A stretch of 64,000 bases of DNA from an uncultured Gammaproteobacteria bacterium (GTDB lineage Bacteria; Patescibacteriota; Patescibacteriia; Patescibacteriales; GWC2-42-12). The notes beneath the pieces are model-generated. The model worked only from the letters and a program-made list of their open reading frames with translations. It was not told the DNA's origin and made no database searches. The stretch spans positions 3,435 through 67,434 of the forward strand of contig CAYSKV010000005.1 in assembly GCA_964431805.1 (NCBI GenBank), read 5' to 3'. Shown one piece after another: positions 9,329 through 62,676 of this stretch. The translations under genes and the position numbers were made by a program. The first letter of the stretch is position 1; each line of letters opens with the position of its first letter.

Positions 9329-10603
9329 TTATTGTTTTTTGCCTTCTTTATATAAAAGTTCAAACAATTTATAATATTTCGCTTTTATTAAAGCTTTTAA
9401 ATATCTTGATCTAATTTGCGTTTGCACTAATAATATTTTTTTCGGAGTAAGTTTTATAATCACGCCGAAAAGCCGTCTTAATAATTCACTTGTCCAAGAA
9501 TCATAATTATCAAAAATATAATCTTGCAACCTATTTTCTTCTATGGCGTTAGTCACCACTCTTTCAAAAGAATCTACCGGCGTATAATTAATCTTTTTCT
9601 TTCTCTCCATGGAAATACAATTCTTAGGGCAAAAACGAGAGCAGACTCCGCAGCCAATGCATTTATGTTTATCAATTAAAATTTTACCGTCTTTTTTTAT
9701 AGCGTCTACCGGGCATCTTTTTGCGCAGATTTCGCAAGAGATACATTGCTCCTGATTAATTTGCGCTAAAAAATTGCTTTGAATTCTATTTCTGTCGCCA
9801 AGCTTTCTATAGGCGATTAAAGCCTCGCAGCAACAACCGCAGCAATTACAAATCCAATTAACGCCCTCCTGGATATTGTCGCCGATTTGCACCAAGCCGA
9901 GTTTCCGACATTTATCTAATATTCCCATAGCCTCTGCTTTAGATATTTTTTTAGCGATTTTATGTTTAGATAAACTTTCGGCCGAACCGTTAAAAGTTAA
10001 ACAAACTTCCTGGGGCATATCGCAAGCCTTGCCGACATGCTCCATTTTATGCCGGCAATAGCAAGTGCCGACCGTAATGCAACTCGCCGAGTCTATTATA
10101 TGCGAGGCTTTTTCATAATCTAAAATAATTGATTTGTCTTTAACTTTATCTTCATGGACGAACGTTCTGTCGGCCGGAATACGCATGCCAAAAATCCTTT
10201 TAACAAAAGCCTCTTCCTGATTTATGTATTTATAAAATAACTCTGACAATATTTTACGATCAAATTTTCCATCAGTTCTCATTAAAGAAAATTCAAAAAA
10301 ACCGGCCATGGTTGGCGCGAGAATAAAAACTCTTCTTTTATTATTTTCTAAATCTAATAGAATACCTTTATCGGCTAAACCGTTTAATATTTTTTCGGTT
10401 TCCATTAAATCCTTTTTAAATCTTTTAGCCGCTTCTTTAATTGTAAAAAAACGAATTGGTAATTTTGCGACCAGCTCAGCCTCTTTTTCCGTAAATAAAA
10501 TTTCTAAAATTTTATATAAAGTTTCTGATTCCGGCGCGCCTTGAACATGCCGATCTAACCTTGCTTGTAAATTTTTATATGATTTTGATGTAATATGACC
10601 CAT
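9329..10603 (-). CDS. Cys-rich Fe-S protein: N-terminal winged-helix-like region, central CxC/CCxCCC cluster region, C-terminal 2x[4Fe-4S] ferredoxin domain
   Basis: 424 aa. CISCEICAKRCPVDAI and CIGCGVCSRFCPKNCI are classical ferredoxin motifs. Also CYCRHK..C, and NWICNCCGCCCEAL. Confidence 0.7.
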   Translation of the reverse strand: MGHITSKSYKNLQARLDRHVQGAPESETLYKILEILFTEKEAELVAKLPIRFFTIKEAAKRFKKDLMETEKILNGLADKGILLDLENNKRRVFILAPTMAGFFEFSLMRTDGKFDRKILSELFYKYINQEEAFVKRIFGMRIPADRTFVHEDKVKDKSIILDYEKASHIIDSASCITVGTCYCRHKMEHVGKACDMPQEVCLTFNGSAESLSKHKIAKKISKAEAMGILDKCRKLGLVQIGDNIQEGVNWICNCCGCCCEALIAYRKLGDRNRIQSNFLAQINQEQCISCEICAKRCPVDAIKKDGKILIDKHKCIGCGVCSRFCPKNCISMERKKKINYTPVDSFERVVTNAIEENRLQDYIFDNYDSWTSELLRRLFGVIIKLTPKKILLVQTQIRSRYLKALIKAKYYKLFELLYKEGKKQ

Positions 10604-29149: not shown

Positions 29150-29183
29150 ATTATTAAATTTTAAGTTGATAAGGAGGATCCAG

Positions 29184-29333
29184 ATGTACTACTATTTATT
29201 AATATGTGGATGCGGCTGTGTAGGTAAAACTGTCTCGCAAACGTATATTGCAAACTCCGAAGACAATTGTCCAAACTGCGGTAGTAAAGTTAAGCGAATT
29301 TCTGTTTCAAAGGAGCAATACGACGCGGCATAA
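29184..29333 (+). CDS. Unannotated 49-aa zinc-ribbon mini-protein
   Basis: Not in the ORF track (under 60 aa). AAGGAGGAtccagATG then MYYYLLICGCGCVGKTVSQTYIANSEDNCPNCGSKVKRISVSKEQYDAA*. Followed by the hairpin AGGGGAATAA..TTATTCCCCT-T8. Confidence 0.55.
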   Translation: MYYYLLICGCGCVGKTVSQTYIANSEDNCPNCGSKVKRISVSKEQYDAA

Positions 29334-33580: not shown

Positions 33581-34891
33581 TTAATAACACCCCAGCTGGT
33601 TAATAGTAGCGCTGCAAGTCTGAGCTGTATCATGACAAGAACCCCAAGAATAAGTGCGATTGTTATATATACATGTCTCTTTAGCTATATTAGCCCATGC
33701 GTGGCTAGCAGTCGTGCATGATTGGGCTGGACAATTCGTAGCATTATTTGTAGTTCCGGTACAAGTCCTTACAACAGTGGCTGAATAATTATAGTAATTT
33801 GACCATCCGCTCGGGCAGCTACTAATTGATAATCTACAATAACTATTTGCGCCATCATTCATAACAGTTCCGCCCAAGCTTATACAATTAGAAGGCGTAT
33901 GTATGCCTTGGTAAAGAAGCTCTGTGGGAATAAAATAACAACAGTATGCTTCTGTTTTAATTTCCTCCCAATCACTATTATCAGTGCTATTACCACCTGA
34001 ACTACAAAGAGTTGTCTTAATACTAGCTACATAACTGCCATCCGGGCAACTAATAGATGATGTGCCTGGGCTGGCATAAGCACCTCTAACGCAACCTCCA
34101 GAATACCACGTACATCCATTACTTTGTTTTATATCCGTGGCGCCACCAATATACGCTGTTGTTTGTAAAGTCCCATCAGGAAATTTAATACCATCTACGC
34201 CGGCTGTGCCACCGATTGTTAATTTTGCGCTTGGAGTGGTTATCCCAATGCCGACGTTACCTTGATTATCTATACGCATTCGTTCAACAATAGTATTTGT
34301 GCCATCAGGGCTAGTAAAGAACGAGATACGGCCTGGAGTATCTGTTGTGTCCCCGGCAGTATCCCATTCGCCATCAGCTGCAATATATATCATTGCTGCC
34401 GGAAAAAAGGGAAAAAGGCCAGCTGCAACACTATATCCATATCCATTTAAAGACATGAGCCCATCATTATTTTGTACAACGGCTGGACTTGAAACGCTTC
34501 CGCGAGCGCGATAACCCTTGAAAGAAGGTCCATAACCAGGAAAAACAGAATTATAAGAATAATCACCAATTTCAGAATAACTGCCGTCGCTAACTACTGA
34601 TAGTTGATTTGCCGGGTTCGTCGTCCCAATCCCAACATTCCCTTTTTCCACAATCAAACCTAAAGGAGAAATGCCGTTAGTATTAATCCATAAAGCTCCT
34701 AATTTAGATTGTAAAAGTGGGCCAACGTTAAGCGGTTCGTCGCAACCTGGATCACCGGTATTACAAGTCGCCGGGTTAGCTAAAGGCGCGATCCAGGCGG
34801 CCAGGAGAGATTGAAATGAAATAGATAGGCCTAGAGTTAAAATAACAGCCGTAATTAGAAGAAGAGAGATTTTAAAATGCTTCTGGTACAT
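33581..34891 (-). CDS. Secreted surface protein with tail-fibre-like GNVGIG repeats and a Cys-rich C-terminal domain
   Basis: Trimmed to the ATG at 34889-34891 (MYQKHFKISLLLITAVILTL signal/anchor). Repeats GNVGIGTTNPANQLSVV and GNVGIGITTPSAKLTIGG. About 24 Cys in the last ~190 aa. Confidence 0.75.
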   Translation of the reverse strand: MYQKHFKISLLLITAVILTLGLSISFQSLLAAWIAPLANPATCNTGDPGCDEPLNVGPLLQSKLGALWINTNGISPLGLIVEKGNVGIGTTNPANQLSVVSDGSYSEIGDYSYNSVFPGYGPSFKGYRARGSVSSPAVVQNNDGLMSLNGYGYSVAAGLFPFFPAAMIYIAADGEWDTAGDTTDTPGRISFFTSPDGTNTIVERMRIDNQGNVGIGITTPSAKLTIGGTAGVDGIKFPDGTLQTTAYIGGATDIKQSNGCTWYSGGCVRGAYASPGTSSISCPDGSYVASIKTTLCSSGGNSTDNSDWEEIKTEAYCCYFIPTELLYQGIHTPSNCISLGGTVMNDGANSYCRLSISSCPSGWSNYYNYSATVVRTCTGTTNNATNCPAQSCTTASHAWANIAKETCIYNNRTYSWGSCHDTAQTCSATINQLGCY

Positions 34892-55665: not shown

Positions 55666-58600
55666 TTATCTTTGAAGACCGCTATAAGCTATACCTCTAA
55701 TTATATTCCAATCTGTAGCATTAACTGGGCTATGTTCATAGATCCATTTGAAAGTTGTGATAGCGGTTTGTTCGCTGATTAGGTTTCTGGGTCTGGGCAT
55801 TAAACCATAGGCCATAACCATAATAGTGTTTTGGTCTAGATTGTTAGACATAACAGGGTTGCGGCCATAGACTCGGGAGAATTCTATTTTAGCCTGTTCC
55901 TCAATATTAGAATTTCTCTCAATTGGCCATCTACCATTGGCTATTTTCAATAAATCAGACCATTCAGCTTCGCTATTAGGCAGTCTAGAGTAGGCTTTGT
56001 AGTAGGAGTTAATGACTGCGGCTCGTTCGCCTGAACCTAATCTCAGGGTTGATTTAGTACCATAGACTATGAAATTATTGATAGTTGATCTCTCAATATC
56101 AGTTATAGTTTTATCTAAATTTAGAATAGTCTGATATTTAATTAATCCTTGTTGTTCTTTGGCTAAATCAGCCTGAATAGCTAGATGAGTTAATAATTGA
56201 TTTTTATCATTAGTAGCTAATATTTGAGCTTCGGTTAGAATCTGTTCTAATAGTTCATCATTGTTATTATTAGCTGAATTATTATTGTTGTTATTATTGT
56301 TTTGATTATTACCTGGGTTGTTGTTTCCTGGATTGCCGTTATTGTTGTTCCCATTATTTCCTGGGTTGTTGTTATTGGGTGGAGGCAAAGGGTTACCACC
56401 AGAAACAATCATAATACTGTCTGAATAAACATCTGTTATATTGCCTAGAGCGTCCTTAAATTTAACATAAACTGTTTTAGTGCCAAAACCGCTGTCTAAC
56501 GTCCAGGTTATGGCCGAGGTATATGTTCGCCAATCGCAATCAGTAAACTCTTGATTATTACAAACCATCATCTGACTAACAGCGCCGGCATCATCAGTGG
56601 CTTGAAAATTTAAAATTACATCATGAGTAATTATTTTTTCTTCTCCGGAGTTAATAGTAATTTGACCGGTTAAAACCGGAAGGCCGAGACGGGTTAAAAA
56701 AGTAACTTCAGTATTATTATAAGAAGTAAAAAATCCGCCAACTAATATTTTATTATCGTTTTGAAAAAAGACGGAATATACTCCGGCATAAAAAAGCCCT
56801 GCTAAACCAGTTCCAGAATTAAATGTTTCATCTAAGCTGCCGTCGGAGTTAAGTCGAACTATATTATTTACTGCAGTGCCATTATAAGAAGTAAAATATC
56901 CGCCAATTAATATTTTACCATCATCCTGAAGTGACATTGTTTGTATGTATGGATAATCGTTTCCCAATCCTGTGCCAGAACTAAATGTTTCATCTAAGCT
57001 GCCATCGGAGTTAAGTCGAACTATGTAGTTTGCCATAACTCCATTATAAGAATTAAAACCTCCACCCACTAATATTTTACCATCATTTTGAAGGGCTATT
57101 GAACATACCGCCGGCCAATCTCCGCCGAAACCGGTACCTTGATTAAAAGTTGTATCCATACTTCCATCAGTATTTAGTCTAACTATATTGTTTACTTCGG
57201 TACCATTATAAATAGTAAAATATCCACCAACCAATATTTTATCGTCATTTTGTATTGTAACAAAATAAACTCTTTCCCAGTCTCCGTTAAAACCCTCCTC
57301 CATATTAAAACTTGCATCTATACTGCCATCAGAATTAAGTCTAGCTATATTATTAGCCAAATTTCCATTATAAGAACTAAAATCTCCACCAACTAATATT
57401 TTCCCGTCACTTTGCAAGGCTATAGTATTTATATAATTATCAAATCCTAATCCGCCAGAATTAAAAGTAGTATCTAAACTACCATCAGAGTTAAGTCTAA
57501 CTATATTATTCGCCGTAGTGCCGTTATAAGAAGTAAACCATCCACCAACTAATATTTTACCATCACTTTGAAGGGCTATAGTATTCACACAATCATCAAA
57601 ACCTAACCCGCCAAAATTAAATGTTTCATCCAAACTACCATCAACATTGAGTCGAGCTATATAATTTACCGCAGTATCATTATAAGAAGTAAAACCTCCA
57701 CCCACTAATATTTTCCCATCGTCTTGAGTAGTTACAATACTAATATAACCATTAAAACCTTTAGCGCCTGGATTAAAGCTTGTATCTAAACTACCATCTG
57801 AGTTAAGTCTTTCCAAATAATCTCCGCCTATTATTATTTTATTATCAGATTGAATAGATATATCTCTAACCCACATCCAAGAATAAATTTTAGAGGGAGA
57901 GGTAAATGTATTATCTAAAGTTCCATTACTATTTAATCGGGCTATTTTTTTTATAGTAGTACCATTATAAGAATCAAAATCTCCTCCTATTAATATTTTA
58001 CCGTCTGATTGAATAGCTACACTAGCAGTCCTAATAGTAAAACCTGTTCCTGCGTTAGCATGAAAGTCCGTATCTAAACTTCCATCTGTATTAATTCTAG
58101 CTATATATCCAATACTTGTTCCTCTGTATGTGTCGATTCTCATGCCAACGATAATTATTTTCCCATCAGATTGTACTGCTATATCTAAAATTTCTGGATA
58201 ATATGAACCCGACAACCCAGTACCGGGGTCAAAAGTTGTATCTAAGGTTCCATCAGCATTTAATCTGGCTATTTCGTTTCTGGTTACTCCGTTAAATGTA
58301 GTAAAAAGTCCCCCAATAACTATTTTATTATCGTCCTGAATAAATATTGATTCTGGACCCCACCAATTAAAACCTGTGCCAATATTAAAACTTGTATCTA
58401 AAGTACCATTTGTATTTAATCTAGCTATTCTGCTTACTGCTGTACCATTATAAGAACTAAATTGCCCGATAACTACTATTTTCCCATCACTTTGTAGGCC
58501 CATTCCCATGACATTACTATTAAACCCAACACCAATATTAAAATCTGTATCTAAACTACCATCAGTATTTAATCTAACTATGTGATTTACTGTTGTGCCA

Positions 58601-59001
58601 TTATAAGAAGTAAAACCTCCTCCAACTAATATTTTACCATCACTTTGGAGGACAATTGTTTCTACTTTATAATCACCATTGTCATTAAAGCCTGTACCGA
58701 TATTAAAATCTGTATCTAAACTACCTTCAGTATTTAATCTGGCTATACAATTAGCCGGTGTGCCATTATAAGAATTAAATTCACCGCCAATTAAAATTTT
58801 TCCATCACCTTGAATAACTGTTGTATTTACTCTATAATCAACTCCTTTAAATTCACCATTTATAAAATCCGAGTCTAGTCGCCCATCAGAATATATATAA
58901 CTTTGAGCTTTGGTTTGGTTGGCGAAGGAGGATAGAAATAATAAGGTTAAAATAAATAAGATTATGCCTTTGGGCATTTTTTTGTTTTTTGTTATTTTCA
59001 T
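55666..59001 (-). CDS. Giant secreted protein: signal peptide, ~13 delta-60-type beta-propeller repeats, Ig-like region, poly-Asn/Gly linker, conserved C-terminal domain
   Basis: Trimmed to the ATG at 58999-59001 (MKITKNKKMPKGIILFILTLLFLSSFA). Repeat unit ARLN.DGSLDT.FN.G.GF......IA.QSDGKILVGG.F.SYNG. Linker PPNNNNPGNNGNNNNGNPGNNNPGNNQNNNNNNNN. The C-terminal ~190 aa are homologous to the end of 4535-7516. Confidence 0.85.
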   Translation of the reverse strand: MKITKNKKMPKGIILFILTLLFLSSFANQTKAQSYIYSDGRLDSDFINGEFKGVDYRVNTTVIQGDGKILIGGEFNSYNGTPANCIARLNTEGSLDTDFNIGTGFNDNGDYKVETIVLQSDGKILVGGGFTSYNGTTVNHIVRLNTDGSLDTDFNIGVGFNSNVMGMGLQSDGKIVVIGQFSSYNGTAVSRIARLNTNGTLDTSFNIGTGFNWWGPESIFIQDDNKIVIGGLFTTFNGVTRNEIARLNADGTLDTTFDPGTGLSGSYYPEILDIAVQSDGKIIIVGMRIDTYRGTSIGYIARINTDGSLDTDFHANAGTGFTIRTASVAIQSDGKILIGGDFDSYNGTTIKKIARLNSNGTLDNTFTSPSKIYSWMWVRDISIQSDNKIIIGGDYLERLNSDGSLDTSFNPGAKGFNGYISIVTTQDDGKILVGGGFTSYNDTAVNYIARLNVDGSLDETFNFGGLGFDDCVNTIALQSDGKILVGGWFTSYNGTTANNIVRLNSDGSLDTTFNSGGLGFDNYINTIALQSDGKILVGGDFSSYNGNLANNIARLNSDGSIDASFNMEEGFNGDWERVYFVTIQNDDKILVGGYFTIYNGTEVNNIVRLNTDGSMDTTFNQGTGFGGDWPAVCSIALQNDGKILVGGGFNSYNGVMANYIVRLNSDGSLDETFSSGTGLGNDYPYIQTMSLQDDGKILIGGYFTSYNGTAVNNIVRLNSDGSLDETFNSGTGLAGLFYAGVYSVFFQNDNKILVGGFFTSYNNTEVTFLTRLGLPVLTGQITINSGEEKIITHDVILNFQATDDAGAVSQMMVCNNQEFTDCDWRTYTSAITWTLDSGFGTKTVYVKFKDALGNITDVYSDSIMIVSGGNPLPPPNNNNPGNNGNNNNGNPGNNNPGNNQNNNNNNNNSANNNNDELLEQILTEAQILATNDKNQLLTHLAIQADLAKEQQGLIKYQTILNLDKTITDIERSTINNFIVYGTKSTLRLGSGERAAVINSYYKAYSRLPNSEAEWSDLLKIANGRWPIERNSNIEEQAKIEFSRVYGRNPVMSNNLDQNTIMVMAYGLMPRPRNLISEQTAITTFKWIYEHSPVNATDWNIIRGIAYSGLQR

Positions 59002-59205
59002 ATTTTTGTTTATTAAAAAAGCAATGGACAAAGAGTTTAAACTGATTAAACTATTATCCATTGCTTTTTTTCTAATATTTTAAACCAATTTATGCTATTT
59101 TTAGCTAAATTGGCGTTATTTTTTATCATGTTTTGTTTTTATTTTTTGATAATATGATTTTGTATTATCTAATATAATTTTAACAAAAATTTTGTATTTT
59201 GTCAA
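59002..59205 (-). promoter_or_regulatory. Promoter (TTGACA 59205-59200, 17 nt, TAAAAT 59182-59177) plus structured leader and terminator-like hairpin (59064-59021, then T6). Copy B of the duplicated cassette.
   Basis: Hand alignment to 4327-4534 gives ~88% identity with 3 small indels. The hairpin GCAATGGATA...TGTCCATTGC keeps pairing through a C-to-U change, so C-G becomes U.G. Confidence 0.6.
59046..59129 (-). CDS. Candidate leader peptide (uORF, 27 aa) MIKNNANLAKNSINWFKILEKKQWIIV
   Basis: Same frame and the same first 21 codons (3 substitutions) as uORF A. A 1-nt indel changes the tail. The stop again lies inside the terminator-like hairpin. Confidence 0.3.
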   Translation of the reverse strand: MIKNNANLAKNSINWFKILEKKQWIIV

Positions 59206-59350
59206 TGTCTAAAAATTTAAAAATCACCTATACTTAGCGGGGTTTTATTTTATTGACTTTGATAAATTCTTTCTGTTATACTTACCCAAAGCACATTTTA
59301 AAATTAGTAAACACAGAAGCAACCAAAACGACAAAAACAAGGAGGGCATT

Positions 59351-60808
59351 ATGAATAATGTAATTTCGTACAAAAAGTTTAGCGATGAAGTAATGGGAAT
59401 TAAAACTAAAGACGCAACATTTTTACTTATGCCTAAAACCAGGAGGATTGTCACCATGAAACCTGTCGATCTTGGCATTATAGGAAACGAACTGGGCAAT
59501 ATTGTTGAATCATTGCCCGTCAAAAAAGTTTGCGGAACTGAAGAAGAAAATATTTTTGCGCCATTCGCCGGTGGTATTTTTCTTACCAGCGATTGCAATT
59601 TGCGTTGCGTATATTGTTATGCTCGCGGCGGCGAAAAACAAAAATATATGAACTGGCAACTGGCTCATGGCGCGGCTATTTTTTTAATTAACAACGCCAA
59701 AGAATTCAATATCAACCCGCGCATCTCTTTCCATGGCGGCGGAGAGCCGACAATGAACTGGTCGATACTAACAAAAGTTGTGGCATTAATCCAAAAAGAG
59801 TGTCGTCAGTATGGCTTAACGCCATCATTCAGTATTTCAACCAATGGCATTCTTTCTGAAAAAAAGGCGGCTTGGGTTGCTGAAAACATTAACCACATCC
59901 AGTTATCATTTGATGGTCCGAAAAGTATCCAGGATTTTCAACGACCAGGTATTTTCAGCGGCTTCAGCAGCTATGAATACGCAATGGCTACCGCGGCGAC
60001 TTTCAAGAAGCTGGGGAAAAAATTTGTTTCCCGTACCACCGTTCTTGCAGAAAATATCAACAAGATGCCGGAAATTTCTGATTTTATTCTGGAAGAACTT
60101 GGAGCTTCAATGATTCATGTCGAACCGGTTTTCCATGACGGACGAGGAATTAATAACCCCCTTATTAAAACCCCCGACCAAGGCGAATTTTTAGAACAAC
60201 TGCTAAAGCTGCAAACCAGTTCTAAATTTTCTGGCAAAATTTTTGCTCTGGCGAAAGGAATGTTTAAAGATAAATATTGCGGCGCTGCCGGATATAATTT
60301 TCTGGTAACTCCGGATGGCATTATCACCAGCTGTTATGAAGTGCTCACCCGAGACGACGAACGAGCAAAAATTTTTCAGTATGGTTATTACGACGAGTTC
60401 GAGAAAAAATTTATAATTGATCATAAAAAATTTGATCGCCTCGGACAGCGAAAAGCTTGCAACGTCAAGGGATGTGATGAATGCTTCGCTGAATTTAACT
60501 GCGCCGGCGGCTGTTTAGCTAAACATGCCAACGCGAATTCAGACAGTATATTCAGTTTCCAAAAAAACTTCTACTGCGATGTTGAAAAGGGATTAGTGCT
60601 CCACACTCTGGAAAACATGCGCGAAGGCGGGACAGAAATTACAATTGCTCCGGAAATTGCTGCCAAAGTCGGTGCCATGAAAGTATATGATTTGCCATGT
60701 ACGGCTTCTTTAGGAGGGCAAGACCAAACAGGCGCAGTGCTCTGTTGTGGTTGTGCGGGACATAGCTGCCCGCAGTGTTCCCACTGCGATGACTGTGGCT
60801 GCTCATAA
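59351..60808 (+). CDS. Radical SAM/SPASM-domain enzyme with an appended 8-Cys C-terminal tail
   Basis: 485 aa. AAGGAGGGcattATG. SDCNLRCVYCYA (CxxxCxxC), GGEP, SPASM-type CGAAGYNFLVTPDGIITSC ... CDECFAEFNCAGGC. Tail LCCGCAGHSCPQCSHCDDCGCS. Promoter TTGACT(59253)-18-TATACT(59277). Confidence 0.8.
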   Translation: MNNVISYKKFSDEVMGIKTKDATFLLMPKTRRIVTMKPVDLGIIGNELGNIVESLPVKKVCGTEEENIFAPFAGGIFLTSDCNLRCVYCYARGGEKQKYMNWQLAHGAAIFLINNAKEFNINPRISFHGGGEPTMNWSILTKVVALIQKECRQYGLTPSFSISTNGILSEKKAAWVAENINHIQLSFDGPKSIQDFQRPGIFSGFSSYEYAMATAATFKKLGKKFVSRTTVLAENINKMPEISDFILEELGASMIHVEPVFHDGRGINNPLIKTPDQGEFLEQLLKLQTSSKFSGKIFALAKGMFKDKYCGAAGYNFLVTPDGIITSCYEVLTRDDERAKIFQYGYYDEFEKKFIIDHKKFDRLGQRKACNVKGCDECFAEFNCAGGCLAKHANANSDSIFSFQKNFYCDVEKGLVLHTLENMREGGTEITIAPEIAAKVGAMKVYDLPCTASLGGQDQTGAVLCCGCAGHSCPQCSHCDDCGCS

Positions 60809-60898
60809 TAGAAAAACATTTAACTCCGCTGATTTAATTATCAGCGGTTTTTTTATTATAATAAAATCCGAGACAAAAATCTCGGATTTATAATTGGG

Positions 60899-61135: not shown

Positions 61136-62059
61136 TTATTTTCTCTGCTTTCCATGAAACGCTTTATGTACATCCCTAAGCTGCTGATCAGTAATATGGG
61201 TATAGACTTGGGTAGTGGTAATTGAAGCATGTCCGAGCATAGCTTGCACGCTACGAATATCAGCTCCGTTCATTAATAAATCAGTAGCATAACTATGGCG
61301 TAAAGTATGGGGCGTTACTTCTTTAGTAATTCCGGCAACGCGGGCATATTTTTGCACTAAACGTTGTACGCTCCTTGGCGTCAATCCGTCTTGCTCCTCG
61401 CGGCCGCTAGACGCTTTATCATGGCTGGTAAATAAAAACGGATTGGTGTCTAAGCGAGTTTTTAAATATTCTTCAATCGCTCGCCTAGCGTCGTCAGATA
61501 AAAAAACAATACGCAATTTAGAACCTTTACCACGGACAGTAAATTCATCTTTCTTCAAATTAATATTTTCTATTTTTAATTTACATAATTCAGAAACCCT
61601 AAGACCCGTAGAAAAAAATAATTCTAAAATCGCTCTATCCCTTTTTCTTATAATCTCCGGCAATTCAATTTTTAACGGCGCTTCTAAAATACGCGCTAAA
61701 TCCGAACCCTCTAAAAAATCTACTTGCCTTTGCTCTTGTTTAGCTAATTCCACCTTTTCCGGCTCTAACGATTTAATATCGTTTTTAACTAAATATTTTA
61801 AAAACCCGCGTAAGGCGATTAAATGATAATTTTGTGTATTCTTTTTTAAGCTTTCACTTTTAGAATTACTTAAGCGGTTAAGCCACAATCTATACTTATG
61901 CACTAATTCTTTGCTAATTTTAGCCGTAGAAGTAATACCTGATTCTTTGGCAAAACCGGCAAATCTTTTTAAATAAAACGCATAATTACTAACCGTGGTA
62001 CGTGATAACCCTTTTTCTACCTCTAAATACTCTAAAAAATTGTTTATTGTCTTATCCAT
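61136..62059 (-). CDS. xerC: Tyrosine recombinase, XerC/XerD-like
   Basis: Trimmed to MDKTINNFLEYLE. N-terminal SAM-like core-binding domain. Catalytic R..HxxR..Y: LRHSYATDLL, GHASITTTQVYTH. Confidence 0.8.
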   Translation of the reverse strand: MDKTINNFLEYLEVEKGLSRTTVSNYAFYLKRFAGFAKESGITSTAKISKELVHKYRLWLNRLSNSKSESLKKNTQNYHLIALRGFLKYLVKNDIKSLEPEKVELAKQEQRQVDFLEGSDLARILEAPLKIELPEIIRKRDRAILELFFSTGLRVSELCKLKIENINLKKDEFTVRGKGSKLRIVFLSDDARRAIEEYLKTRLDTNPFLFTSHDKASSGREEQDGLTPRSVQRLVQKYARVAGITKEVTPHTLRHSYATDLLMNGADIRSVQAMLGHASITTTQVYTHITDQQLRDVHKAFHGKQRK

Positions 62060-62262
62060 AGACCCCCACACTTATAATTTATTTACCCTCACTACAAAAT
62101 ATAAGCTAGTTTTATATTAAGTGTGGGGGTATACTTTCATTTTACGACACCTTGCAATTTTTTACAATTTATGTTAGTCTTAGCACATATTTATTAAAAA
62201 ATAACGGTACCCAATCTTGGTCAGGGCTTTGTCCCCCTGTCTCGGTCTGGGCCAAAGACAAC

Positions 62263-62676
62263 ATGTTAGACAAAAAAGCAAAGCAAAAAATCATTAACAA
62301 GTTTAAGATCCATGAAACCGATACTGGGTCTTCGCAGGTGCAAATTGCTATTTTAACTGAAGAAATTAAGCAGTTAACCGAGCACTTAAAAAAGCACAAA
62401 CATGATCATTCTTCAAGACGCGGCTTATTAAAAAAAGTTAGCGAACGAAGACGCTTATTAAAATATTTACAGAAAGAAGACCAAAAAGCTTTTGATGAAT
62501 TAGCTAAAGCTTTAAAATTAAGAATTGCTAAAAAAATGATTGAAGATGAAGAGGCCAGACAGAAAATTGAAGATGAAATTTTAGCTAAACAAGAATTAAA
62601 AGCCGAACAAGCCGAAGAAGAAGAAAATGAAAGAGCTGAAGTTGAAGATCATAAAAATAAAGAAGACGAAGAATAA
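62263..62676 (+). CDS. rpsO: 30S ribosomal protein S15 with ~50-aa acidic coiled-coil C-terminal extension
   Basis: Trimmed to MLDKKAKQKII (ATG 62263). TGSSQVQIAILTEEIKQLTEHLKKHKHDHSSRRGLLKKV is the S15 core. The extension is EDEEARQKIEDE...EEEENERAEVEDHKNKEDEE. Confidence 0.85.
   Translation: MLDKKAKQKIINKFKIHETDTGSSQVQIAILTEEIKQLTEHLKKHKHDHSSRRGLLKKVSERRRLLKYLQKEDQKAFDELAKALKLRIAKKMIEDEEARQKIEDEILAKQELKAEQAEEEENERAEVEDHKNKEDEE

What the first reader, a model, noticed from the sequence alone, without database searches (positions are those of the whole stretch)
59245..60840. Radical SAM/SPASM enzyme fused to its own SCIFF-like 8-Cys tail; no separate precursor peptide visible
The 485-aa protein has the CxxxCxxC radical SAM motif (CNLRCVYC). 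It also has a SPASM-type auxiliary-cluster region (C..GYNFLVTPDGIITSC ... CDECFAEFNCAGGC), as in peptide-modifying maturases.

After the SPASM domain comes a ~50-aa extension ending LPCTASLGGQDQTGAVLCCGCAGHSCPQCSHCDDCGCS. That is 8 Cys in the last 21 residues, preceded by one further Cys in a Gly-rich spacer. This looks like the Cys-rich core of ranthipeptide/SCIFF-type substrates rather than a catalytic domain.

I found no small peptide ORF nearby:
- Upstream is only its own promoter, divergent from the giant-protein promoter.
- Downstream are a terminator and tRNA genes.

Possible readings are an enzyme-substrate fusion (self-modification or in-trans modification of the tail), an extra metal or cluster site, or a metallochaperone tail. 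The gene has a perfect SD, unlike the core genes of this genome.
Basis: partly seen in the sequence, partly recalled or inferred. Interest (0 to 1): 0.6.

Follow-up and report, generated by a model that had tools for sequence, protein, structure and literature searches.

The report
Radical SAM maturase fused to substrate
This gene encodes a peptide-modifying radical SAM enzyme whose cysteine-rich partner peptide, a separate small gene just downstream in most relatives, is welded onto the enzyme's own C-terminus; I found no published precedent for this layout in this enzyme class.

Summary
ORF 59351-60808 (+) encodes a 485-aa radical SAM/SPASM protein. It has CNLRCVYC, a complete 7-Cys SPASM motif and a disordered tail with 9 Cys in the last 36 residues; the genome background is 1.2% Cys.

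- The enzyme belongs to an uncurated family. It scores below every NCBIfam cutoff; the best matches are PapB and the SCIFF maturase, and the closest solved structure is CteB.
- In 12 of the 16 closest loci from other organisms, a 50-190-aa ORF with a leader-like N-terminus and a hypervariable Cys-rich C-terminus starts -37 to +59 nt from the enzyme's stop.
- P0036 (fused) and P0037 (enzyme plus separate peptide) are 73% identical and share neighbouring gene families.
- Fused forms occur in at least four lineages. Two of these kept the tail while their cores diverged to about 37-41% identity.
- Fused loci with DNA available have no separate peptide gene.
- Cys spacing differs in every fused tail, which argues against a conserved third cluster domain.

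The chemistry is inferred, not shown. Thioether cross-linking of the tethered tail, in cis or between subunits, is the most likely reaction.

I rate it a new variant of a known kind. The gene is also a GC and Shine-Dalgarno outlier, so it was probably acquired horizontally.

The parts
59253..59282 (+). Sigma-70-like promoter (TTGACT, 18 nt spacer, TATACT, with a TG extension) for the monocistronic gene
   Evidence: 10 of 12 consensus matches. This is a pattern match only.
59340..59345 (+). Shine-Dalgarno AGGAGG, 5 nt upstream of the ATG
   Evidence: Sequence. It is one of only 3 of 44 large ORFs in the window with AGGAGG.
59351..60808 (+). CDS of the 485-aa radical SAM/SPASM maturase with fused Cys-rich peptide; coordinates include the stop codon
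   Evidence: The gene is identical in four other assemblies.
59351..59524 (+). N-terminal beta-sheet plus helix domain (residues ~1-58). It sits where the peptide-recognition (RRE) domain sits in CteB-type maturases.
   Evidence: The AF2 model has strands 6-9, 15-18, 23-27 and 32-36 and a helix at 41-53. The family consensus is ELFxIP...ILYxPL. The Foldseek alignment to CteB spans about 450-477 columns. The RRE identity is inferred, not tested by an RRE model.
59567..60250 (+). Radical SAM core (residues ~73-300). The cluster motif C82/C86/C89 lies at 59594-59617.
   Evidence: PF04055 scores 50.2 bits against a cutoff of 29.5, over residues 78-246. The three Cys are invariant. pLDDT is above 90.
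60278..60616 (+). SPASM auxiliary-cluster region (residues 310-422) with seven invariant Cys: C310, C328, C375, C378, C384, C388 and C409
   Evidence: Searches show invariance. The region aligns to CteB and anSME through this stretch. The Pfam SPASM HMM itself did not hit.
60617..60742 (+). Linker, or leader-like segment (residues 423-464: ...GGTEITIAPEIAAKVGAMKVYDLPCTASLGGQDQTGAVL), containing the lone Cys C450
   Evidence: AF2 pLDDT is about 70 for residues 423-450, with strand 428-430, helix 434-440 and strand 443-447, and below 50 from residue 451. Unfused relatives end at about residues 430-437. A lone Cys 14-18 residues before the Cys cluster is shared with other fused tails and with some split peptides.
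60743..60805 (+). Cys-rich core (residues 465-485: CCGCAGHSCPQCSHCDDCGCS). It is equivalent to the core of the separately encoded peptides of relatives.
   Evidence: The segment is predicted disordered.
60826..60857 (+). Intrinsic-terminator-like hairpin (CCGCTGAT...ATCAGCGG) followed by a T-tract, 18 nt after the stop codon. It leaves no room for a downstream peptide gene.

Best explanation
The gene encodes a peptide maturase of the radical SAM/SPASM type, related to CteB and PapB. Its cognate Cys-rich precursor peptide (leader-like segment plus core) has been fused in frame to the enzyme's C-terminus.

In most relatives the same partner is a separate small gene that starts at or overlaps the enzyme's stop codon. 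A loss of that stop, or a small deletion across the junction, would produce the fused form.

Proposed mechanism, all inferred:
1. The enzyme binds three [4Fe-4S] clusters through C82/C86/C89 and the seven SPASM Cys.
2. The flexible tail of about 60 residues loops back into its own active site, or reaches the active site of a second subunit as in borosin OphMA.
3. A tail Cys thiolate engages auxiliary cluster I, as the substrate Cys does in CteB.
4. Reductive cleavage of SAM gives a 5'-deoxyadenosyl radical, which abstracts a hydrogen from a neighbouring residue.
5. A Cys-S-to-carbon thioether forms. This repeats along residues 450-485.
6. The cross-linked tail then stays on the protein or is clipped off by a protease.

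Each enzyme molecule would therefore process about one substrate.

Shown: the domain make-up, the split/fused relationship, and its recurrence in several lineages. Inferred: that the tail is modified, which reaction occurs, cis versus trans, and the fate of the product.
For: (1) Enzyme identity. The ten cluster Cys (three radical SAM, seven SPASM) are invariant. The best family matches are thioether-forming maturases: PapB 112.7 bits, SCIFF maturase 105, CefB 91, QhpD 79.8. The closest solved structure is CteB, by sequence (E 1.6e-21) and by fold (E 8e-19).

(2) The tail is detachable. Of the 16 distinct non-self loci scoring at least 200 bits against the window protein, 12 have a same-strand ORF with at least 5 Cys per 30 aa starting -37 to +59 nt from the enzyme's stop. 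The proportion falls to 11 of 32 at 170-200 bits and 4 of 67 below 140 bits. An upstream control gave 7 hits among about 150 loci. One example is L002 7367-7648.

(3) A direct split/fused pair exists. P0036 (487 aa, Cys tail) and P0037 (444 aa) are 73% identical over 432 aa. Both have DUF8128 and YceG genes nearby. P0037 is followed by an overlapping 76-aa Cys-rich ORF with its own AGGAGG.

(4) Fusion is recurrent and retained. With tails removed, {P0001, P0002, P0127} are mutual best hits, and so are {P0149, P0230}, at about 37-41% identity. P0036 and P0042 have only unfused nearest neighbours.

(5) The distribution is complementary. Fused loci with DNA (the window, L170, L171/L172) have no separate Cys-rich ORF just downstream of the gene.

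(6) The split peptides look like RiPP precursors. Within clades the N-terminal regions are conserved and the Cys-rich C-termini are hypervariable. One clade adds a PqqD-like small protein, a TPR protein and a B12-radical SAM enzyme.

(7) The tail is about as long as the short split peptides. It is about 55 aa beyond the point where unfused relatives end, against 52-55 aa for the short split peptides. It also shares with them a lone Cys 14-18 aa before the Cys cluster.

(8) The tail is predicted disordered (pLDDT below 50 for residues 451-485), and Cys spacing differs in every fused tail.
Against: - There is no biochemical evidence that any member of this family modifies its peptide. The family is below every curated cutoff and the peptides match no curated family.
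- The tails of P0001 and P0002 are not significantly similar in sequence (shuffle test p = 0.11). Homology of tails therefore rests on architecture and on the phylogeny of the enzyme cores.
- All five copies of the window gene are identical in DNA, so there is no population evidence for selection on this particular tail.
- Four of the 16 closest loci, and many more distant clades, show no Cys-rich ORF downstream.
- No protease or exporter is nearby, so release of a product is not supported.
- Low AF2 confidence in Cys-rich segments would also be expected for a metal-binding module modelled without its metal.
Confidence: 0.7

Rival explanations
1. The Cys-rich tail is a metal- or Fe-S-binding module rather than a substrate, and so are the separate Cys-rich peptides of relatives. 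It could be a built-in ferredoxin-like electron donor, a cluster-delivery tail or a metallothionein-like partner. It would serve the enzyme while the enzyme acts on another, unseen substrate.
For: - The tail contains CxxCxxCxxC (C473-C482), which could ligate a cluster or Zn.
- No protease or exporter lies nearby.
- AF2 cannot model metal sites, so the low pLDDT is uninformative on this point.
- The window's organism has a small, SD-poor genome, and compact single-chain solutions would be plausible in such a genome. This last step is my inference.
Against: - Cys number and spacing differ in every fused tail and every split peptide. Gaps range from 0 to 18 residues and periods include CxC, CxxC and CxxxC. 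That is unlike a conserved cluster-binding motif and typical of RiPP cores.
- The split peptides have leader-like N-termini of 20-120 aa. In one clade they are accompanied by a PqqD-like protein and a second radical SAM enzyme.
- Most family members lack any tail.
Confidence: 0.15
2. The fusion is a recent accidental read-through with no function. A stop codon was lost between the enzyme gene and a downstream peptide gene, and the enzyme or the peptide is effectively dead or neutral.
For: - Enzyme and peptide genes often overlap or abut, so fusions should arise easily.
- All copies of the window gene are one clonal sequence.
- The gene looks horizontally acquired.
Against: - Fused forms occur in at least four lineages. 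Two fused clades kept an in-frame Cys-rich tail while their cores diverged to about 37-41% identity.
- All ten cluster Cys and the other family-invariant residues are intact in P0001.
- The gene has its own promoter-like site, a strong SD and a terminator-like hairpin.
Confidence: 0.05
3. The tail is a tethered pseudo-substrate or regulatory element. It would occupy the active site as an auto-inhibitor or as a redox or metal sensor, while the real substrate is a peptide or protein encoded elsewhere in the genome.
For: - The window covers only part of this genome, so a substrate gene could lie outside it.
- The tail resembles a substrate and is tethered by a flexible linker.
Against: - No Cys-rich small ORF lies near the gene in the window. 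The only other candidates are a 62-aa ORF at 34262 and a 55-aa Zn-ribbon-like ORF at 29166, both about 25-30 kb away.
- Where a separate peptide exists in relatives it is adjacent to the enzyme gene, and fused loci lack one. The simplest reading is that the tail replaces the peptide.
Confidence: 0.07

Closest known systems
CteB / Tte1186 (SCIFF maturases) with SCIFF peptides; PDB 5wgg and 5why
   Same: - It is the closest solved structure by sequence (E 1.6e-21) and by fold (E 8e-19, TM about 0.62-0.71).
- Both have an N-terminal peptide-binding-type domain, a radical SAM core and a 7-Cys SPASM region.
- Both have a Cys-rich peptide partner.
- In CteB a substrate Cys contacts auxiliary cluster I (established knowledge; see also PMC10177961).
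   Different: - It scores 105 bits against a cutoff of 425 for TIGR03974.
- The tail and the split peptides do not match SCIFF or any other curated peptide model.
- The SCIFF peptide is always a separate gene. Here it is fused to the enzyme.
PapB (freyrasin ranthipeptide maturase), NxxcB, QhpD, CefB and the CXXX-repeat maturase family (TIGR04115)
   Same: - PapB is the best NCBIfam match for the window protein and matches all 30 relatives tested.
- These enzymes act on repeated Cys motifs to form Cys-to-side-chain thioethers (PMC10114670).
- The partner cores here are likewise repeats of CxC, CxxC or CxxxC with D, N, Q, E, S or T between the Cys.
   Different: - It is below every cutoff: PapB 112.7 of 340, CefB 91 of 600, QhpD 79.8 of 453, TIGR04115 77.8 of 350.
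- The chemistry of this family is untested.
- Only one split peptide (L034) gave even a weak hit, E 0.007, to a Cxxx-repeat target model.
Borosins (OphMA-type N-methyltransferases with a C-terminally fused core peptide) and BURP-domain peptide cyclases
   Same: - The architecture and logic are the same: the modifying enzyme carries its own substrate core at its C-terminus.
- Split versions exist in other organisms (bioRxiv 10.1101/2021.12.24.474128; PMC8429565; PMC12186524).
- Such fusions imply roughly stoichiometric, self-directed modification.
   Different: - The enzyme classes and chemistry are unrelated: SAM methyltransferase or copper cyclase versus radical SAM with Fe-S clusters.
- There is no sequence relationship.
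- Self-modification is demonstrated for borosins and only inferred here.
Anaerobic sulfatase-maturating enzyme (anSME)
   Same: It is a SPASM radical SAM enzyme that acts on a Cys or Ser in a protein substrate. It is the second-best structural match.
   Different: - It scores 69 bits against a cutoff of 349.
- No sulfatase gene is apparent among the ORFs flanking the gene, and the tail has no C/S-x-P/A-x-R sulfatase motif (by inspection of the sequence).
- anSME has no N-terminal recognition domain and no fused tail.

Membership tests
Radical SAM superfamily (PF04055) | CxxxCxxC cluster motif and a Pfam model score above the gathering threshold | tested here: met
   C82-x3-C86-x2-C89 is present and invariant in 110 relatives. 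PF04055 scores 50.2 bits against a cutoff of 29.5.
SPASM subfamily of radical SAM enzymes | Seven-Cys motif Cx9-15Gx4C ... Cx2Cx5Cx3C ... C for two auxiliary [4Fe-4S] clusters | tested here: met
   C310-x12-G323-x4-C328; C375-x2-C378-x5-C384-x3-C388; C409. All seven Cys are invariant. The fold matches CteB and anSME through this region.
SPASM subfamily of radical SAM enzymes | Match to the Pfam SPASM model PF13186 | tested here: not met
   There was no PF13186 hit at E up to 1. Only 1 of the 120 listed relatives has a precomputed PF13186 hit. The motif and the fold are present, so this reflects low model sensitivity rather than absence of the domain.
PapB-family ranthipeptide maturase (NF047865) | Score at or above the curated cutoff of 340 bits | tested here: not met
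   112.7 bits. The best of the 30 relatives reaches E 3.2e-50; bit scores for relatives were not listed, so their standing against the cutoff was not checked.
SCIFF maturase (TIGR03974) with a SCIFF peptide | Enzyme score at or above 425 bits, and a partner peptide that matches the SCIFF model | tested here: not met
   The enzyme scores 105 bits. The tail (63 aa tested) and nine split peptides give no SCIFF hit.
Anaerobic sulfatase maturase (TIGR03942) | Score at or above 349 bits | tested here: not met
   69 bits.
CXXX-repeat peptide maturase (TIGR04115) with a Cxxx-repeat target | Enzyme score at or above 350 bits, and a target that matches TIGR04114 or TIGR04117 | tested here: not met
   The enzyme scores 77.8 bits. 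Only the L034 peptide gives a weak TIGR04117 hit (16.5 bits against a cutoff of 50).
RiPP system (precursor with leader and core, plus a maturase with a recognition element) | A small precursor gene adjacent to the maturase, with a conserved leader and a variable core | tested here: met
   This is met for the split relatives: 12 of the 16 closest loci have such a gene, and clades show conserved N-termini with hypervariable Cys cores. In the window the equivalent segment is fused (residues ~431-485).
RiPP system (precursor with leader and core, plus a maturase with a recognition element) | A RiPP recognition element (PqqD-like domain) | tested here: inconclusive
   The N-terminal domain has the expected position and the expected sheet-plus-helix content but was not tested with an RRE model. 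Separate upstream proteins in one clade hit PqqD at 21.9 and 22.6 bits, just under the 23.4 cutoff.
Sactipeptide / ranthipeptide class | Cys sulfur to alpha-carbon (sacti) or to beta/gamma-carbon (ranthi) thioether in the mature peptide | not testable with these tools
   This needs mass spectrometry or NMR of the modified tail or peptide.
Enzyme-core fusion architecture (borosin-like logic; analogy, not homology) | The core peptide is encoded in frame at the C-terminus of its modifying enzyme, and split versions exist elsewhere | tested here: met
   Self-modification itself was not tested.

The most novel reading that the evidence does not exclude
This would be a one-gene, self-contained RiPP-like module. 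The radical SAM enzyme cross-links its own C-terminal tail, in cis or within an oligomer, and is consumed stoichiometrically. The cross-linked Cys-rich tail is the functional product, either released or kept as a protein-borne metal-binding or redox appendage. Fusion would make the system transferable as a single gene, which would fit its compositional-outlier status in a reduced genome. It would also expose a large uncharacterised family of Cys-repeat peptide maturases spread across many bacterial phyla, including Patescibacteria (CPR), and archaea.
Probability: 0.35. Interest if true: 0.8.

Novelty: new variant of a known kind. Interest (0 to 1): 0.62.

Why it matters
- **Precedent.** Radical SAM/SPASM maturases are a main source of new peptide chemistry. 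Their substrates are normally separate genes that are hard to find. Eight full-text searches here found natural enzyme-substrate fusions described for borosin methyltransferases and BURP cyclases, but none for radical SAM maturases.
- **Substrate identification.** The fusion names the substrate of an uncurated family with many hundreds of members in public data (700 cluster representatives at E up to 1e-30).
- **Experimental handle.** It gives a single polypeptide in which enzyme and substrate are held together. That is convenient for structural work and for determining the chemistry by mass spectrometry.
- **Biological implications.** It implies single-turnover use of an expensive three-cluster enzyme. 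It also shows how a RiPP pathway can shrink to one transferable gene in a reduced genome.
- **Genome mining.** Tools that look for a separate precursor ORF will miss such systems.

Tried and rejected
1. **Decay of the N-terminal recognition domain in fused forms.** The alignment suggested deletions in P0001 and P0002. However, the distance to the CxxxCxxC motif (82 residues) is not an outlier against a family median of 92 (rank 18 of 118). I dropped the idea.
2. **Sequence homology between the P0001 and P0002 tails.** The local alignment score was 36 against 28.4 +/- 5.6 for shuffles (p = 0.11). This is not significant, so the claim rests on the core phylogeny and on tail architecture.
3. **Population evidence for selection.** The four other assemblies are identical in DNA to the window across the gene and its flanks, so they carry no information on selection.
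4. **A separate precursor in the window.** I scanned all ORFs of at least 15 aa. Nothing Cys-rich lies within about 25 kb.
5. **An internal in-frame start that would make a free peptide.** M443 has no SD-like sequence upstream (sequence), so this is unlikely.
6. **Curated names for the partner peptides.** NCBIfam and Pfam gave nothing except one weak hit for the L034 peptide.
7. **att-like direct repeats or a cis-regulatory RNA around the gene.** None was convincing. Rfam finds only the two tRNAs above gathering score.
8. **Literature.** Eight full-text searches and four papers searched for key terms found no description of a radical SAM maturase fused to its substrate, nor of this peptide family. 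Absence from this library is not proof of absence.
Full report
**1. The observation**

ORF 59351-60808 (+) encodes 485 aa.
- The radical SAM motif is C82-x3-C86-x2-C89 (CNLRCVYC).
- The SPASM motif is complete, with seven Cys: C310-x12-G323-x4-C328; C375-x2-C378-x5-C384-x3-C388; C409.
- All ten of these Cys are invariant across 30 and then 110 aligned relatives.
- The C-terminus reads ...LPC450TASLGGQDQTGAVLC465C466GC468AGHSC473PQC476SHC479DDC482GC484S.

The Cys density is not chance. Cys makes up 1.2% of residues in the window's large ORFs, and this tail is the most Cys-dense stretch among 902 ORFs in the window.

The gene looks monocistronic.
- A promoter-like site lies at 59253-59282.
- AGGAGG lies 5 nt before the ATG.
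- A terminator-like hairpin at 60826-60847 lies 18 nt after the stop.
- Two tRNA genes follow on the other strand.
- No Cys-rich small ORF lies nearby.
- The same gene, base for base, is found in four other assemblies from four samples, so the open frame is not a single assembly error.

**2. What the enzyme is**

Pfam detects only the radical SAM core. NCBIfam gives 64 radical SAM maturase models at E up to 1, all far below their curated cutoffs:

| Model | Score (bits) | Cutoff (bits) |
|---|---|---|
| PapB ranthipeptide maturase | 112.7 | 340 |
| SCIFF maturase | 105 | 425 |
| CefB | 91 | 600 |
| QhpD | 79.8 | 453 |
| CXXX-repeat maturase | 77.8 | 350 |
| anSME | 69 | 349 |

- All 30 relatives tested match the PapB model, which gives the best E-value of any model among them (3.2e-50). 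No curated family name applies to the window protein.
- The closest solved structure is the SCIFF maturase CteB, by sequence (E 1.6e-21) and by fold on an AF2 model with mean pLDDT 86.4. anSME is next.
- The model has an N-terminal four-strand sheet plus helix where CteB has its peptide-recognition domain. It also has a confident radical SAM and SPASM core.
- Residues 423-450 have pLDDT of about 70. Residues 451-485 are below 50.

**3. What the tail is**

*Most relatives lack it.* Of the 120 listed relatives, most are 430-460 aa and stop at about the position of residue 430-437 of the window protein.

*A separate peptide gene sits downstream of unfused relatives.*
- The closest unfused relative with long contigs is P0004, at 40% identity. 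An ORF whose start overlaps P0004's stop follows it. That ORF encodes a 93-aa protein ending CAIFCACEPDCSCYNHDCNYCTCYSHDCPCEYHDCGDEHCWADCGTY.
- I fetched 160 further related loci, 80 from genomes and 80 from metagenomes. In each I scored the same-strand ORF starting -60 to +150 nt from the enzyme's stop.
- Among the 16 distinct loci scoring at least 200 bits against the window protein, 12 have such an ORF with at least 5 Cys in 30 aa. These start -37 to +59 nt from the stop.
- The proportion falls to 11 of 32 at 170-200 bits, 10 of 35 at 140-170 bits and 4 of 67 below 140 bits. The equivalent upstream position gave 7 hits among about 150 loci.
- These peptides are 50-190 aa long. Within clades their N-terminal regions are conserved, for example MADKPDDR...PEPKVFFVVDGKKFGRPSLETYYA. 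Their Cys-rich C-termini are hypervariable, with CxCxxV hexads, CxxxC repeats and other patterns.
- In one bacterial clade the operon also encodes a PqqD-like small protein (21.9 and 22.6 bits against a cutoff of 23.4), a TPR membrane protein and a B12-binding radical SAM enzyme.
- Loci from Patescibacteria (CPR) and archaea are minimal: enzyme plus peptide only (for example L034, L088, L007 and L013).
- None of the peptides matches a curated family. The single exception is a weak hit of the L034 peptide to Cxxx-repeat and FibroRumin target models.

**4. Split and fused forms are interchangeable**

- P0036 (487 aa, tail ...CVCDNQCSMQTCKCDGTCNFDC...) and P0037 (444 aa, no tail) are 73% identical over 432 aa.
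- Both have DUF8128 and YceG genes nearby.
- P0037 is followed by an overlapping 76-aa ORF with its own AGGAGG, ending ...CKDCGCNGDCNCDSHTKCG....
- An exhaustive search of 1.84 billion representatives added three more fused proteins: P0127, P0149 and P0230.
- I compared enzyme cores only, with tails removed:

| Fused lineage | Core-only relationship |
|---|---|
| {P0001, P0002, P0127} | Mutual best hits at 289-352 bits, against at most 266 for any unfused protein |
| {P0149, P0230} | Mutual best hits at 327-334 bits, against at most 271 |
| P0036 | Nearest neighbours (64-73% identity) are all unfused |
| P0042 | Nearest neighbours (about 40% identity) are all unfused |

- Fusion therefore arose at least four times. 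Two lineages kept the in-frame Cys-rich tail while their cores diverged to about 37-41% identity.
- Fused loci with available DNA (the window, L170, L171/L172) have no separate Cys-rich ORF just downstream of the gene.
- Six of the seven fused tails have a lone Cys 14-18 residues before the Cys cluster. Split peptides L003, L013 and L093 share this feature.
- The window tail extends about 55 aa beyond the usual enzyme end. That is the size of the short split peptides (52-55 aa: L034, L037, L047).

**5. Interpretation**

The tail is best read as the cognate precursor peptide, leader-like part plus core, fused to its maturase. Because the two genes normally abut or overlap, a small change at the junction is enough to fuse them.

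- The tail is not a conserved third cluster domain. About 3% of listed relatives have one, and Cys spacing differs in every case.
- No adjacent precursor gene accompanies the fused genes.

The reaction is inferred from the nearest characterised enzymes. CteB/Tte1186, PapB, NxxcB and QhpD all make Cys thioethers (PMC10114670), and in such maturases the substrate Cys contacts an auxiliary cluster directly (PMC10177961). I therefore propose radical-mediated thioether cross-linking of residues 450-485. It would occur in cis through the flexible linker of about 45 residues, or in trans within an oligomer as in borosin OphMA (PMC8429565).

Three things are open: which carbon is attacked, how many links form, and whether the tail is later released. 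I put 0.7 on 'fused cognate peptide partner or substrate', and about 0.5 on thioether chemistry specifically.

**6. Rivals**

- **A metal or Fe-S module (0.15).** It cannot be excluded without metal analysis. The tail does contain CxxCxxCxxC. The hypervariable spacing and the leader-like regions argue against it, and so do the PqqD-like proteins found with the split peptides.
- **A neutral accidental read-through (0.05).** It is disfavoured by the recurrence and long retention of fused forms, and by the intact catalytic residues.
- **A tethered pseudo-substrate or regulator (0.07).** It is possible, but less simple than replacement of the missing separate peptide.

**7. Comparison with known systems and novelty**

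- In what it works like, this is a CteB/PapB-type maturase.
- By membership, it belongs to no curated family.
- In architecture, it parallels borosins and BURP cyclases, where the enzyme carries its own core peptide and split versions exist (bioRxiv 10.1101/2021.12.24.474128; PMC12186524).
- Eight full-text searches found no report of a radical SAM maturase fused to its substrate, nor of this peptide family.
- I rate it a new variant of a known kind.

**8. Context**

- The gene has the highest GC (0.426) and GC3 (0.41) of the 44 large ORFs in the window. The others range over 0.25-0.42 and 0.20-0.35.
- It is one of only three ORFs with AGGAGG, in a genome where 37 of 44 large ORFs have no SD-like motif.
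- It lies next to two tRNA genes and a tyrosine recombinase gene.
- Horizontal acquisition is therefore likely, although I found no att-like repeats.
- A single-gene enzyme-plus-substrate unit would transfer easily. That last point is my inference.

Noticed in passing
window 59351-60808 compared with the whole window: The radical SAM gene is a compositional outlier. Its GC is 0.426 and its GC3 0.41, the highest of 44 large ORFs. It is one of only 3 ORFs with an AGGAGG Shine-Dalgarno, and 37 of 44 have none. It lies beside tRNA-His, tRNA-Arg and a tyrosine recombinase gene (61136-62071, -). This suggests horizontal acquisition, but no att-like repeats were found.
   Followed up: partly
Relatives P0005, P0008, P0022, P0028, P0031, P0093, P0103, P0105, P0110, P0114, P0116, P0117, P0118: Thirteen of 120 family members end in a single C-terminal Cys (for example ...IEC...ERC...KTC). 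About 1-2% would be expected from typical Cys frequency. This is unexplained. It could be a cluster ligand or a minimal tail.
   Followed up: no
P0126, P0128, P0129, P0182, P0208 (883-909 aa): These are double-length relatives. The query matches their C-terminal half, and four of the five match in two stretches. They may be tandem or two-domain radical SAM proteins in the same family.
   Followed up: no
P0099 (646 aa) and L106 (653-aa ORF): Two relatives carry a different C-terminal extension of about 200 aa with scattered CxxC pairs. It is unlike the short Cys-rich tails.
   Followed up: no
L004, L006, L008-L010, L017, L018, L022, L023, L025, L031, L039, L040: One bacterial clade of the family (including Acidobacteriota, Coriobacteriia and Verrucomicrobiia MAGs) has a larger conserved operon. 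It runs PqqD-like small protein, radical SAM/SPASM enzyme, Cys-rich peptide usually ending C-x-C-[VI]-P-V-H, TPR membrane protein, then B12-binding radical SAM enzyme. I found no description of this apparently uncharacterised RiPP-like cluster type in the searches made here.
   Followed up: partly
window 55666-59061 (-): The divergently transcribed 1131-aa protein consists of 14 DUF5122 beta-propeller repeats (E 1e-192). It has an N-terminal signal-like segment and an Asn-rich low-complexity linker.
   Followed up: partly
window 62152-62676 (+): The ribosomal protein S15 ORF is 174 aa long, about twice the usual length. It has a long Glu/Lys-rich C-terminal extension and possibly an over-called N-terminus.
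   Followed up: no
window 29166-29333 (+), 34262-34450 (+) and 9329-10603 (-): Three other Cys-rich ORFs lie in the window. One is a 55-aa ORF with CGCGC...CPNC, which looks like a Zn-ribbon. One is a 62-aa ORF with 6 Cys in 30 aa, which was not examined further. One is a 424-aa protein with a 2x[4Fe-4S] ferredoxin domain. All three are more than 25 kb from the radical SAM gene, and I do not consider them its partners.
   Followed up: partly
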